DNA of 12,797 bases from a virus, in the UHGV virus genome UHGV-1675436, one strand, 5' to 3'. Positions 6,001 through 9,000 of this stretch are shown here, in pieces. Within the stretch, counting starts at the first letter, position 1, and the number at the start of each line of letters is the position of its first letter. Position numbers: made by a program.

Positions 6001-9000
6001 GGGAGTGGCTTTCACGGAATGCCGCCATCCACACGGTTGCAGCACGACGGTATAAGCCTCTTGACTCCAGTTCTTCAGCCTGGCGGGTCAGGCACAAAAT
6101 CACCCGGGGATCGTTAGTGCCGACATAGAAATTGCGCACAGGTCTGGTTTCACGAACTGGTTGTGGTTCCGGCTCCTGCGCTCTCTCAGTCAGGCGTGGG
6201 AAATGTCTGCGTGTATCTCCTTCACAACGGTGAGCCACACGCCCACTCTGACGTAACTTGCTTGCTGACTGCAGAACGCGCTGCCGTGAGTAACCTGCAA
6301 AAGCATCCGCAATGTCTCCGGAAGTACACCCCGGATGGGCTTCAATGAATTTCTGAACTTCATTCAAAAGACTCATGATCACCCCCTGAATCCTGCCGGG
6401 ATCTGGCTGTAGTCCACGTTGTCGTAACTGGCTTTGAAGTACGGGTCCTCGCGTCTGGCTGCAGATACCGCAGGAACTTCCCAGAATTCTTCGAAATGAC
6501 GATCCGGACCAAAGAACGTGACAGCCTGTTTCACAAATTGTGTGCCGCTGTTACCCATCGCAGATACCCATCCCGCGTAGCGTTTCACACCTTCCAGCAT
6601 GGTTTCGGGGTTTACTCCCTCATTCAAACGGGCTTTCCAGGCTTTGAAGGCTGCAGATTTTGAATTGCCACCAGCACGTTTGGGATATGCCAGCCATGCC
6701 TGCTCAAACTCCGGAGAATATTCCGGTCGGTTTGAACGAACTCGCACGGACTCATCAACTGATGCACCAACAGCTATTGGTTCATTGACTGGTTCTTTGA
6801 CTGGTTCAAAAGAGTGACTGGTTCTGGGTGAATCTCCTGCACTACCCCCTGGTGCAACTCCTGCACTACCTGGTGAATTTGCTGCACCAGATAGTGAATT
6901 ATTTGCACTACCCCCTAGTGAATCTCCTGCACCATCCAGATGAAGGAGATAGATATTACTTGAGTTACCTTTTTCACCTTTCCGGGTGACTTTTTTTACC
7001 AGCCCGGACTCACAAAGGGCCGCAATATGATTCATCACAGAACGTTTGCTAATCTCGCACTGGTCAGCAATATGCTGGTAGCTGGGCCAGCACTCACCCT
7101 GATCGCTGGCATTATCAGCCAGCTTGATCAGAACCAGTTTTCGCAATGGATTACCCACTCGAATTTTCATCGCTTTAACCATCAGCTCCATACTCATGCT
7201 GCACCTCCGAGATGCTTCATGTTTTTTCCGGAGCGAAAGGCTATAAGCGGCATACTGACGCGGTAATTACGGCCCAGCGGTTCACAAATCACCTTCTGGC
7301 ATTCACGGTCAACCAGGCTAACACGTAGAACATGCCCTGCAGGTGTGGTGTACCACTGCCCAACTGTAGGAATTGATGTTTTTTTACGCTGAAGCAAACG
7401 GCAAATATTGAGGATCAACGGATTAAGCATGACGATGCCCTCCGCTGATATTCAGGAGACGGTGAATATGAAAATTAGCCTTATCCGCCAGACGAATACG
7501 TTCAGCCTGCAAGTTAAGAAGGGTTTCTACCAGAACTTGATGCGCCTGCGGATCCGAAAGAGTTACCTTGCGCAGAGCACGTAGTGCAGTTGTTACATAA
7601 CTGAGTTTATGTAAGTCTTCATCATTCAGACGAGAGAGGGCTGGGACAGTAGCCATGATGGCAGCCTCCGTATGCAATGGATAACTTCCACCACCGGAAA
7701 CGCCAATTTCGCTGGTGGTGAACTGAACGGGGTTGGCGTAACCGGCGTTATCGGAAACCGGCGCACCTTTCGGTGCCCCCGTCCAGCCCACCATAATTTG
7801 GGTGTGCACAGACGCAGACGATAAAAAAGACGCTGGCGCGTCATATATCGCCGATAACATTTCCAGGACGCCAATCCCGGCACCCGCTTTATAAGGTGCC
7901 TGAACAGTGTAACGTCCCGGAATGGCAGAATCAATGTGCTGGTGGTCCTTCACACTCAACAAAATCACGCCTGAATTTCCACAAAGGACTAAAGCACTCA
8001 TGCGGGTAGTCTTTGCGAAGATAGATAACGCGCTGTGTTTCTGGCTCCCAACGAATAACATGGACATAAAGCCCTCTTCCGTCACGAAACCAGCGGTTAA
8101 GTTCCTGCACAACTCGCCCCCCACAGTCAGGTAAAGTTCTCTGTGGTTACTTACAGCCAGGTGATTTGGTAATCTGCATTCATGCCGTAACAACAGGTGT
8201 TCAGCGACGCTGACCACCAGCTGTTGCGACAAACGGTTATTTGCCGTTAAACTGTTCATGCGTTAGTTTCTCCACAGACACAAAACGCCACGACGCCCGG
8301 AGCTGCACACTCGCGGGCGTCACTCTTTTCTGGAGCGCAAAAGATTTTGTAGACCAGTGCTGCATGCTCCTGGAGCTTCGAAATTGACAGATACAACTCA
8401 TCATTAATTGCTGTCCGCTCGTGTGGCTCCACTACCCCATCTTCGATTGCCGAACGAATCTGCTTTGAGTAACTCCCGATCTGTTCGATGACTTCCAGCA
8501 GGCGCTGGTTTATATCGGCGTTCTCTACTTCCTCAATTTCAGGAAGCGATACAAACACCCCACCAGCAGACTGTGCGACAGCATCCGCAATGTAGTGAGT
8601 GCCAGCCGCGCGCTGTAAAATCATTGCCCATCCCAGCGGGAAAATCTGATCGCCATCTGCACGAAGGCGGTTGAATAAAGCGTTCTCTGTTACATCCAGC
8701 CACTCAGCAGCTTCAGCGTAACCCCCCGGCAACGCCGCGATAGTTTTTCTGACAGCTTTCACGTACCACTCAGGCTGTTTTTCTACTTTCCAGTGATGCT
8801 TACCCACGGTTAGCCTCATCGTTCTGTGGTTAAAAATTGAAGGTGTTCTGTTAATCTTTCGGATAGATATCCGGTCTTAAGTCAGATTTCGTAATTGCAC
8901 CTGACGTGCATTGCTCAAGTTTTTTAGCCAGCACAAAACTGGCTTTTTTATAACCATTGAAAACCAGCCGTAAGTAGCCTGGTGTTGAGCCAACTTTTCC

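What the first reader, a model, noticed from the sequence alone, without database searches (positions are those of the whole stretch)
7194..8259. Uncharacterised, translationally coupled gene pair (278 aa + 78 aa) between the CII-like and replication genes
Two ORFs with good SDs and overlapping start/stop codons sit between the cII-like gene and the replication initiator, where lambda has only tR1/pO-oop. I cannot assign either to a family from sequence. Their inclusion in the immediate-early operon suggests a role in the lysis-lysogeny decision, host takeover or replication initiation (a helicase-loader substitute is one possibility, since no P/DnaC-like gene is present). This is the least-annotated coding block in the window.
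Basis: inference. Interest (0 to 1): 0.55.

Follow-up and report, generated by a model that had tools for sequence, protein, structure and literature searches.

The report
P4-type RNA switch mistaken for gene
The "278-aa gene" is really a read-through reading frame laid over two small regulatory RNA genes (isrK and C4, the phage P4/P1 type of RNA immunity), an embedded small gene in another frame and a short nested gene, so it most likely acts as an RNA/translation switch controlling the phage replication genes, not as an unknown protein pair.

Summary
Both ORFs exist on the minus strand (278 aa, 8259..7423; 78 aa, 7430..7194) with overlapping stop/start codons. The 278-aa ORF is not one protein gene.

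It contains:
- a degenerate YmfM-like leader;
- a conserved 59-aa DUF4222 gene in the -1 frame (8110..7931);
- an isrK sRNA (7899..7823, with terminator) and a C4/CI-type antisense RNA (7798..7711), both above Rfam gathering scores;
- a nested 77-aa ORF (7656..7423).

The Pfam "Ash" match covers exactly the RNA genes, and also hits the obsolete P4 "cI protein" ORF. That stretch shows no codon periodicity. It shows strong three-site compensatory covariation (a1/b1 in isrK, a2/b2 in C4, a3/b3 at the nested ORF's ribosome-binding site).

The long frame is kept free of stop codons without amino-acid conservation, as expected of a P4 Eta-like ORF whose translation overrides RNA-mediated termination.

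The 78-aa protein is an SH3/Tudor-like small protein, probably a DUF4222 paralogue, always placed just upstream of a replication initiator. The helicase-loader idea has no support.

Verdict: a member of a known kind (P4 seqA-CI-seqC/eta-kil; Gifsy-1 isrK-orf45-anrP) that annotation hides. Side findings: a heterotypic b3 site in this window, and an unresolved YmfM versus DUF4222 question in e14.

The parts
7423..8259 (-). Long 278-aa reading frame (SfV orf37; annotated 'ash family protein'). Read here as an Eta-like read-through ORF, coupled to the ymfL-like gene by ATGA and running over all the elements listed below.
   Evidence: ORF. The frame is open 152-451 codons upstream of the nested ATG in all 61 unique related loci, P4 included, with the first ATG right at the upstream in-frame stop. 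Stop codons are avoided without amino-acid conservation.
8111..8259 (-). YmfM-like leader (codons 1-50 of the long frame), a degenerate 'type D' version.
   Evidence: BLASTP to e14 YmfM: 33% identity, E 5e-8. phrog_1170 matches aa 48-98. There is no third-position excess in this type (0.37/0.34/0.33), whereas types A-C show one.
7931..8110 (-). Embedded 59-aa DUF4222 gene (GTG start), in the -1 frame relative to the long ORF.
   Evidence: Pfam PF13973, E 9.5e-14. PGAP calls it. 61-97% amino-acid identity across Enterobacteriaceae. Substitutions per site at codon positions 1/2/3 are 0.21/0.13/0.48. AF2 pLDDT 85, SH3/Tudor-like barrel.
7906..7934 (-). Candidate internal promoter for isrK: -35 TTGATT (7934..7929), 17-nt spacer, -10 TACACT (7911..7906), +1 near G7899. 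The DUF4222 stop codon lies inside the -35 hexamer.
   Evidence: Read from the sequence. The hexamers are conserved at the same spacing in SfV, mEp460, L085 and L119, and in L118 despite unrelated upstream DNA. P4 has TTGCCT...TATAGT at the same place. The site matches 8 of 12 consensus positions, so the strict scan missed it. Inferred, not shown.
7823..7899 (-). isrK-type sRNA / P4 seqA-type leader. It carries target sites a1 (TTGGCGT, 7874..7868) and b1 (GTTATCGG, 7858..7851) and an intrinsic terminator (stem 7842..7829, T6 7828..7823).
   Evidence: Rfam RF01394: 63.7 bits (gathering 50), E 5e-12, full-length. Terminator found. A weak RF03163 c4-a1b1 hit overlaps it.
7711..7798 (-). C4/CI-type antisense RNA, with b2 (CCGATAAC, 7754..7747) in the loop of hairpin 2 and a2 (ACGCCAA, 7739..7733). 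The orf45-like ATG (M156) is at 7794..7792.
   Evidence: Rfam RF01695: 82.8 bits (gathering 45), E 1.9e-15, full-length. Stems and the a1:a2 and b1:b2 pairings covary: 98.8% of cells paired against at most 45% when slid, 0 of 500 shuffles.
7665..7706 (-). Downstream target sites a3 (TTGGCGT, 7706..7700) and b3 (GCATACGG, 7675..7668), with b3 overlapping the SD GGAGG (7669..7665) of the nested ORF.
   Evidence: a2:a3 and b2:b3 covary across 10 sequences with 9 different b specificities. In this window b3 is heterotypic: duplex energy -11.0 kcal/mol against -19.4 for the cognate site.
7423..7656 (-). Nested 77-aa ORF (M202-A278) at the position of P4 kil and Gifsy-1 anrP. It begins with the conserved MAT.. 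start.
   Evidence: The conserved GGAGGCTGCCATCATGGC start is shared with P4, where the ORF is 65 aa, and with Rha-type AnrP-like genes. Variable sites by codon position are 6/1/10, a coding pattern. It is an orphan family with no similarity to P4 Kil.
7194..7430 (-). 78-aa gene (SfV orf38, phrog_1153): an N-terminal helix plus an SH3/Tudor/KOW-like barrel, coupled to both neighbours.

Best explanation
The block is a P4/P1-type RNA 'immunity' module set into the early right operon of an SfV/e14-like lambdoid prophage, just upstream of the replication genes.

Proposed working, by analogy with P4 eta/kil/CI and Gifsy-1 isrK-orf45-anrP:

1. In the lysogen the cI-like repressor shuts off P_R. A weak constitutive promoter inside the long ORF (about 7934-7906) still fires.
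2. That promoter makes the short isrK RNA, which ends at its own terminator. Read-through transcripts are processed into the C4-like RNA.
3. C4 uses its two specificity segments (a2, b2) to pair with a1/b1 in the isrK leader and with a3/b3 at the ribosome-binding site of the nested 77-aa ORF.
4. The nested ORF is then not translated and the naked RNA is terminated, so the 78-aa gene and the replication genes stay silent.
5. After induction, P_R transcripts arrive already loaded with ribosomes. Translation passes by ATGA coupling from the ymfL-like gene into the 278-aa frame and runs through isrK, its terminator and C4. This prevents the RNA pairings and termination, so expression continues into the 77-aa ORF, the 78-aa ORF and the replication gene, all coupled by overlapping stop/start codons.

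On this reading the 278-aa frame matters because it is open, not for most of its amino-acid sequence.

Shown here: the RNA genes, their covarying target sites, the embedded DUF4222 gene, the nested ORF, and selection for an open frame.

Inferred: the internal promoter, RNA processing, the termination step, and the direction of regulation.

The embedded DUF4222 protein and the 78-aa protein are small SH3/Tudor-like proteins of the RgdR family type. Their biochemical role is unknown; my guess is modulation of transcription or replication-module expression.
For: RNA genes:
- Rfam isrK and C4 score above their gathering thresholds, full-length, on the ORF's strand.
- The same tandem is in every 'Ash' locus tested and in P4 itself, and is absent from the Ash-less loci L117 and e14.
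- Pfam Ash (aa 117-209 = 7911..7633) coincides with the RNAs. It also hits the obsolete P4 'cI protein' ORF that overlies the CI RNA.

RNA rather than protein constraint:
- Three-site covariation with 4 'a' and 9 'b' specificities: 24 of 43 pairs compensatory and 98.8% paired; 13 of 15 compensatory; sequences.
- There is no codon periodicity in the Ash stretch (variable sites 44/43/38). The nested 77-aa and the 78-aa ORFs do show it.

Open frame:
- The long frame is open in all 61 unique loci, with its ATG at the upstream in-frame stop.
- In the DUF4222 overlap, stop-creating synonymous codons are never used: 0 of 144 stop-prone L/V/I codons against about 63 expected, and a median 0.036 probability of staying open per locus. 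CTG and GTG are common at non-prone sites.

Literature:
- The conserved SD-ATG of the nested ORF gives a 65-aa ORF in P4. From memory, Forti et al. 1999 report a 65-aa Kil.
- The P4 mechanism is summarised in PMC10111431.
- The Gifsy-1 mechanism is in PMC4825925, including 'orf45 nucleotide sequence conserved, amino acids not' and fused orf45-anrP forms.
Against: - No expression data are available for this element. The internal promoter matches only 8 of 12 consensus positions and was missed by the strict scan.
- No clear Rho-utilisation tract was found.
- The nested 77-aa protein is unrelated to P4 Kil, and the 78-aa protein is unrelated to P4 epsilon. Downstream biology may therefore differ.
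- In Gifsy-1 the short IsrK activates rather than represses, so the sign of regulation here is uncertain.
- This window's b3 site does not match its own C4 loop, so control of the nested ORF may be weakened in this particular prophage.
- Part of the frame's openness over the RNA genes could be inherited along with the conserved RNA sequence.
Confidence: 0.7

Rival explanations
1. The 278-aa ORF encodes a genuine multi-domain 'Ash family' transcriptional regulator or antirepressor, as databases annotate it, and the RNA matches are incidental.
For: NCBI and PHROGs annotate it this way. The ORF length is conserved. Related phages fuse the same N-terminal part to a Rha domain. By analogy with P4 Eta the full-length polypeptide is probably made after induction.
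Against: The Ash stretch has no codon-position signature but strong RNA covariation. The leader also lacks amino-acid constraint. PGAP itself splits the ORF. In L118 the 'Ash-Rha' gene is separated from the leader by an inserted toxin-antitoxin pair. The Stx-phage literature states that no function is assigned to Ash.
Confidence: 0.08
2. The pair are replication accessory proteins, for example a helicase-loader substitute.
For: Position directly upstream of, and coupled to, the replication initiator. Homologues of the 78-aa gene precede three different initiator types. No lambda P or DnaC homologue was seen among the window genes scanned.
Against: No similarity to P, DnaC, DnaT or DnaD. The initiator itself carries a DnaD/primosomal-like C-terminal part. 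Locus L117 has the 74-aa homologue and a lambda P gene together, and L119 has the 77-aa homologue with IstB/DnaC and DnaB, so the small protein does not replace a loader. The fold is a generic SH3/Tudor barrel.
Confidence: 0.07
3. The block is chiefly a host cell-division inhibitor cassette like e14 ymfM (SfiC). The 278-aa N-terminus or the embedded DUF4222 protein blocks FtsZ-ring formation during induction.
For: Same position as e14 ymfM, directly after ymfL. Sequence similarity to YmfM. Expression of ymfM DNA causes filamentation. P1 and N15 (from memory) place the division inhibitor icd in their C4-type operons.
Against: The window's YmfM-like leader shows no amino-acid constraint. This reading does not explain the RNA genes, the nested ORF or the 78-aa gene. 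It is not known which e14 product is active.
Confidence: 0.12
4. Same RNA module, but working as in Gifsy-1. The short isrK RNA acts in trans as an activator that opens a closed read-through mRNA, switching on the nested ORF and downstream genes. It would not be a repressive immunity.
For: The isrK model match, the orf45-like ATG at the same distance, and the fused orf45 forms are all described in PMC4825925. Because a1=a3 and b1=b3, isrK could act as a decoy for C4.
Against: Placement inside P_R upstream of the replication genes, and the continuous Eta-like frame, resemble P4 more than Gifsy-1, where the orf45 stop overlaps the anrP start. The two models are not exclusive.
Confidence: 0.3

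Closest known systems
Satellite phage P4 immunity region (PLE-seqA-CI RNA-seqC, nested genes eta and kil)
   Same: An isrK-type leader and a C4-type RNA in tandem. a/b specificity segments repeated at three sites. A conserved SD-ATG for a short nested ORF. A long in-frame ORF starting at the end of the upstream gene. Location upstream of replication genes. The mechanism is described in PMC10111431.
   Different: The host element is a lambdoid prophage and the upstream promoter is P_R, with a cII-like gene, instead of PLL with alpA. The gap between isrK and C4 is 24 nt against 107 nt. The nested protein is unrelated to Kil and the next gene is unrelated to epsilon. The long frame has an extra YmfM-like leader with an embedded DUF4222 gene.
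Gifsy-1 isrK-orf45-anrP-isrJ locus of Salmonella (PMC4825925)
   Same: isrK with a leaky terminator. An orf45-like ATG about 106 nt from the isrK start, overlapping the processed C4-like RNA (STnc1160). Translational coupling into the next ORF. Sister phages of the window (mEp460, L005, L118) carry a Rha-type AnrP-like gene at that place.
   Different: In the window orf45 is fused in frame to a 77-aa orphan ORF instead of a Rha-type antirepressor. The module lies in the early operon rather than near antQ. No isrJ match was found.
Phage P1/P7 immI operon (c4 RNA - icd - ant), and N15 CA RNA-icd-antA (both from memory)
   Same: A C4 family RNA with a and b segments pairing to sites before and after it, the downstream one covering a ribosome-binding site. 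A division-inhibitor-type gene is associated with the module through e14 YmfM homology.
   Different: The gene order differs: here the YmfM/DUF4222 part precedes the RNA. There was no Icd family hit. No Ant-type protein is present in this window.
e14 YmfM (SfiC), the SOS-inducible division inhibitor of E. coli K-12
   Same: Same position after ymfL with ATGA coupling. 33% identity over 89-99 residues. Same out-of-frame DUF4222 gene inside it.
   Different: e14 has no isrK/C4 module, nested ORF or 78-aa gene. The e14-type N-terminal domain is under purifying selection and the window's is not.
RgdR (ECs1581) of EHEC O157:H7, the only studied DUF4222 protein (PMC3378721, PMC10877973)
   Same: Both are small prophage-encoded DUF4222 proteins.
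   Different: RgdR is 99 aa, lies in a P4-like island, and has an RGD motif. Its effects (LEE activation, motility repression, weak non-specific DNA binding) were not tested for this 59-aa form, which lacks RGD.

Membership tests
Rfam RF01695 C4 antisense RNA (includes P4 CI RNA) | Covariance-model score at or above the curated gathering score, full-length | tested here: met
   82.8 bits against 45, model positions 1-87 of 87, at 7798..7711 (-).
Rfam RF01695 C4 antisense RNA (includes P4 CI RNA) | Closing stem plus two hairpins, supported by compensatory changes | tested here: met
   Helix 3: 17 pairs, 7 compensatory. Helix 4: 5 pairs, 4 compensatory. Both are 100% paired.
Rfam RF01695 C4 antisense RNA (includes P4 CI RNA) | Two segments (a2, b2) complementary to sites upstream (a1, b1) and downstream (a3, b3), the last at a ribosome-binding site | tested here: met
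   In this window a1, b1 and a3 match. b3 is heterotypic: about 8 bp and -11.0 kcal/mol instead of 14 bp and -19.4.
Rfam RF01695 C4 antisense RNA (includes P4 CI RNA) | Processed from a longer transcript (RNase P); causes termination or translation block | not testable with these tools
   Needs Northern, RNA-seq and reporter assays.
Rfam RF01394 isrK / P4 seqA-type leader | Covariance-model score at or above gathering, ending in an intrinsic terminator | tested here: met
   63.7 bits against 50. GC stem plus T6 at 7842..7823.
Rfam RF01394 isrK / P4 seqA-type leader | Own promoter immediately upstream | tested here: inconclusive
   TTGATT, 17 nt, TACACT, conserved across loci, but below the scan threshold.
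P4 eta/kil nested-gene arrangement | A short ORF starting after C4 at a conserved SD-ATG, nested in frame in a long ORF that begins at the end of the upstream gene | tested here: met
   ATGA coupling to ymfL is shown.
P4 eta/kil nested-gene arrangement | Selection to keep the long frame open (translation needed) | tested here: met
   Stop-avoidance tests. The frame is open in 61 of 61 unique loci.
P4 eta/kil nested-gene arrangement | Sequence homology of the nested protein to Kil | tested here: not met
   No BLASTP alignment.
P4 eta/kil nested-gene arrangement | Rho-dependent terminator downstream that is relieved by translation | not testable with these tools
   Only a mild C>G bias over 7754-7365.
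Pfam PF10554 Phage_ASH (as a protein domain) | HMM score above the gathering score | tested here: met
   64.6 bits against 26, aa 117-209.
Pfam PF10554 Phage_ASH (as a protein domain) | Evolves as a protein (codon-periodic substitution) | tested here: not met
   Variable sites 44/43/38. The third position carries the smallest share of pairwise differences, 0.26.
Pfam PF13973 DUF4222 (embedded ORF 8110..7931) | HMM score above gathering, and purifying selection in that frame | tested here: met
   51.1 bits against 27. Substitutions per site 0.21/0.13/0.48.
YmfM / phrog_1170 | Full-length similarity with a constrained N-terminal domain | tested here: not met
   Only aa 48-98 match phrog_1170. 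There is no codon-position signal in the window type.
Helicase loaders (lambda P, DnaC/IstB, DnaT/DnaD) | Profile match in either ORF | tested here: not met
   No hits in Pfam, PHROGs, NCBIfam or PDB.

The most novel reading that the evidence does not exclude
In this whole prophage family, including e14 of E. coli K-12, the annotated ymfM-type frame is mainly a ribosome-conveying ORF. In its 3' half the only selected property is being free of stop codons. The conserved functional protein there would be the unannotated, out-of-frame DUF4222 (RgdR-type SH3-like) protein. The SfiC division-inhibition phenotype attributed to YmfM could then belong wholly or partly to DUF4222, because every published clone carries both frames.

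In addition, the window's heterotypic b3 site could make its replication module answer to the C4 RNA of a different co-resident prophage.
Probability: 0.3. Interest if true: 0.7.

Novelty: new member of a known kind. Interest (0 to 1): 0.5.

Why it matters
1. Annotation. Thousands of 'Ash family protein' and 'Ash/Rha regulator' annotations in enterobacterial prophages, including Stx phages where their role is called unknown, would be translations of isrK plus C4 RNA genes. Pfam PF10554 would be largely an RNA shadow.

2. Replication control. SfV/e14-like lambdoid phages would gate their replication genes with a P4-style RNA and translation checkpoint on top of the cI repressor. That is relevant to induction, to Stx-phage replication types, and to cross-talk between co-resident prophages with matching or mismatching a/b specificities.

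3. Overlapping genes. The ymfM/DUF4222 overlap gives a clean natural case of a frame kept open without amino-acid constraint.

4. SfiC. The identity of SfiC, and which product causes the filamentation, becomes testable with two single-base changes.

Tried and rejected
- PDB sequence searches with the 278-aa ORF, the 78-aa ORF and the DUF4222 profile found nothing.
- NCBIfam gave nothing for either ORF.
- The first related-loci run returned only near-identical viral loci. Diversity came from genome contigs.
- The homologue search with the 278-aa ORF listed only relatives of 93% identity or more. No deep alignment could be built, so no structure prediction of the Ash part was attempted.
- A -1 frameshift fusion of the YmfM leader to DUF4222 was considered. 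The window has a G-run, but it is absent in e14, and DUF4222 has its own ATG/SD in most species. Rejected.
- P4 epsilon against the 78-aa protein, and P4 Kil against the 77-aa protein: no similarity.
- The strict sigma-70 scan found no promoter. The candidate promoter rests on conservation only.
- The rut-site composition scan was inconclusive.
- Forti et al. 1999 (PMC94026) is not held. The P4 mechanism is cited from PMC10111431 and from memory.
- The control with the last 50 ymfL codons was misaligned by indels and is not used.
- The representatives search for the 77-aa protein found only a tiny family.
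Full report
**Observation**

All relevant genes lie on the minus strand. The order is:
- cI/YmfK-like repressor (9142-9816, plus strand);
- cro-like gene;
- YmfL/CII(CP76)-like gene (8819..8256);
- the 278-aa ORF (8259..7423);
- the 78-aa ORF (7430..7194);
- an HTH_36/DnaD-like replication protein (7197..6379);
- PerC and Dam.

The block is SfV orf37-orf38. It is present in 1578 of 5426 complete E. coli genomes.

**The 278-aa ORF is composite**

RefSeq does not call it in the closest genome. It calls instead a 59-aa DUF4222 gene in another frame plus a 181-aa 'ash family protein'. 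Elsewhere identical DNA is annotated as a 278-aa Ash protein, or as a 383-aa Rha protein with no DUF4222.

Pfam places Phage_ASH at aa 117-209. The out-of-frame ORF 8110..7931 is a clear DUF4222 match.

**The N-terminal third: two overlapping frames**

In e14 of K-12 the gene after ymfL is ymfM, the SfiC division inhibitor. YmfM aligns with the first 89 residues of the 278-aa ORF. The DNA alignment, however, shows runs of changes that are synonymous in the DUF4222 frame. e14 has an unannotated DUF4222 ORF with an AAGGAG SD and a TTG start inside ymfM.

I compared 31-33 distinct sequences from different enterobacterial species.

- DUF4222 frame. It shows the coding pattern: differences per site at codon positions 1/2/3 are 0.21/0.13/0.48.
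- ymfM frame. It is nevertheless open in every intact locus, while the third frame has 2-10 stops.
- Stop avoidance. At L/V/I codons where a synonymous choice would create a stop in the ymfM frame, stop-creating codons are never used: 0 of 144 against about 63 expected. CTG and GTG are common at non-prone positions. The chance of the frame staying open under random synonymous codons is about 0.04 per locus.
- ymfM-frame part upstream of DUF4222. It evolves as a protein in three sequence types, with third-position excess. It does not in the window's type (0.37/0.34/0.33).
- End of the ymfM frame. In each arrangement examined in detail (e14, L117-L119, the window and L085) it runs from the stop of the upstream gene to the start of the next gene, or fuses into it.

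**The middle third: RNA genes, not a protein domain**

Pfam Ash also hits the old P4 'cI gene product' ORF. From my own knowledge, P4 immunity is carried by the CI RNA rather than by a protein.

Rfam then gave two full-length matches above gathering on the ORF's strand:
- isrK at 7899..7823, 63.7 bits, ending in a GC hairpin plus T6;
- C4 at 7798..7711, 82.8 bits.

The same tandem is in SfV, mEp460, L085, L118, L119 and P4. It is absent from e14 and L117, which lack 'Ash'.

Lining up the sequences shows two specificity segments repeated at three sites:
- a1/b1 in isrK;
- a2/b2 (complementary) in C4;
- a3/b3 just downstream, with b3 abutting the SD GGAGG of a conserved ATG.

Ten sequences carry 4 different 'a' and 9 different 'b' specificities, and these change together. 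Pair counts:
- a1:a2, 7 pairs, 6 compensatory;
- b1:b2, 8 pairs, 7 compensatory;
- C4 stems also covary;
- overall 98.8% of cells paired against at most 45% when slid, and 0 of 500 shuffles as high;
- a2:a3 and b2:b3, 13 of 15 pairs compensatory.

In the 278-aa frame this stretch has no codon periodicity (44/43/38 variable sites). A weak hit to Rfam's 'a1, b1 targets of C4' overlaps isrK.

**The last third and the 78-aa gene**

The conserved SD-ATG (7669..7654) starts a nested 77-aa ORF (M202-A278).
- The homologous ATG in P4 gives a 65-aa ORF. From memory, Forti et al. 1999 report a 65-aa Kil.
- In sister phages it gives 177-181-aa Rha-domain proteins like Gifsy-1 AnrP.
- The 77-aa ORF evolves as a protein (6/1/10).
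- It is an orphan: 9 hits among 1.84 billion representatives. It is unrelated to Kil.

The 78-aa gene also evolves as a protein (11/9/21).
- Its model (pLDDT 81) is an N-terminal helix plus an SH3/Tudor/KOW-like barrel.
- The DUF4222 model (pLDDT 85) has the same order of strands and largely the same structural neighbours.
- Profile comparisons link the two weakly: hhalign E 0.002 and HMM E 0.008.
- In the loci examined, either DUF4222 or a homologue of the 78-aa protein sits directly upstream of the replication initiator, and the 74-78-aa homologues precede three different initiator types.
- The only studied DUF4222 protein is RgdR of EHEC.

**Mechanism**

PMC10111431 summarises the P4 system.
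- A constitutive promoter inside eta gives a transcript that is terminated through CI/seqA RNA interactions and is processed into CI.
- Kil is the truncated form translated on read-through.
- Full-length Eta is translated only from the upstream promoter, coupled to the upstream gene, and its translation prevents termination.

PMC4825925 describes the Gifsy-1 relative.
- isrK has a leaky terminator.
- orf45 has a conserved nucleotide sequence but not a conserved amino-acid sequence, and it overlaps a processed RNA.
- orf45 is translationally coupled to anrP, and fused orf45-anrP forms occur.

The window matches this anatomy point by point:
- the long frame is coupled by ATGA to ymfL;
- promoter-like hexamers sit at the P4 PLE position and are conserved even in L118, where the upstream DNA is unrelated;
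- isrK, C4, a3/b3 at the ribosome-binding site, and a nested ORF follow;
- two further coupled genes then lead into replication.

The long frame is open in all 61 unique loci.

I therefore read the 278-aa ORF as an Eta-like conveyor frame. Transcripts from the internal promoter are held in check by C4. P_R transcripts are translated straight through and reach the replication genes. The promoter, the processing, the terminator and the sign of isrK action are inferred.

**Rivals**

- A true Ash protein regulator is unlikely, given the absence of codon periodicity and the RNA covariation.
- The helicase-loader idea lacks any support. The small protein co-occurs with lambda P or with DnaC/DnaB in other loci, and the initiator has its own DnaD-like part.
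- A division-inhibitor role may hold for the embedded DUF4222 protein or the leader, but it does not explain the block.

**Side observations**

- The window differs from its closest E. coli relative at only 10 bases. Nine of them form a patch that replaces b3 with the b3 of another specificity type. This weakens pairing with its own C4 loop: -11.0 against -19.4 kcal/mol. No complete E. coli genome has this combination.
- The published ymfM clones contain both YmfM and DUF4222, the latter either complete or as codons 1-53. Two single-base changes that separate them were checked in silico.

**Verdict**

The finding is real as ORFs but mis-read. It is a member of the known P4/P1/Gifsy-1 RNA-switch kind, hidden under a protein annotation. 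It comes with an unusual overlapping-gene leader and two small SH3-like proteins of unknown role.

Noticed in passing
window 7688-7668 (b3 patch), compared with b2 at 7754-7747: Nine of the ten differences from the closest E. coli relative cluster here. They swap the RBS-proximal C4 target for that of another specificity type (CATACGG instead of TTATCGG). No complete E. coli genome has this combination (best match 95.4%). This could be immunity escape or cross-talk with another prophage.
   Followed up: partly
L003 (E. coli K-12 e14) 8002-8181, inside ymfM 7823-8161: An unannotated 59-aa DUF4222 ORF (TTG start, AAGGAG SD) lies out of frame inside ymfM and overlaps the oweE start. Published filamentation clones carry both frames, so the identity of SfiC is not settled. 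PGAP calls DUF4222 instead of ymfM in K-12 derivative assemblies.
   Followed up: partly
L118 2792-4678 (Salmonella contig AAWWQQ010000044.1): The ymfM frame stays open for 628 codons. It runs through the antisense strand of an inserted HigB/HigA-like toxin-antitoxin pair and on into the isrK-C4-Rha module. This is unexpectedly long for chance.
   Followed up: no
window 7194-7430 and 7931-8110; loci L117, L118, L119: The 78-aa protein and DUF4222 look like SH3/Tudor-like paralogues. In the loci examined one or the other directly precedes the replication initiator; the 74-78-aa homologues do so for three initiator types (HTH_36, Phg_2220_C, and an unnamed 297-aa protein followed by IstB and DnaB).
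   Followed up: partly
window 6828-6932: Direct repeats of an iteron-like unit (..CTCCTGCACTACC..), spaced about 24-42 nt, lie inside the replication gene. This is probably the origin, as in lambda O.
   Followed up: partly
window 7423-8259 and matching E. coli records: The same DNA is annotated three ways in RefSeq: as a 278-aa ash protein; as DUF4222 plus a 181-aa ash protein; or as a 383-aa Rha protein without DUF4222.
   Followed up: yes
window 7860-7912 (-): A sub-threshold Rfam hit to RF03163 'a1, b1 targets of C4 antisense RNA' (21.4 bits, gathering 46.7) overlaps the 5' part of isrK.
   Followed up: no
L097 3001-3021 (Phytobacter sp. V91): The DUF4222 ORF is cut to 6 codons by an early stop while the ymfM frame remains open (113 aa). 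This may be a natural DUF4222 knockout.
   Followed up: no
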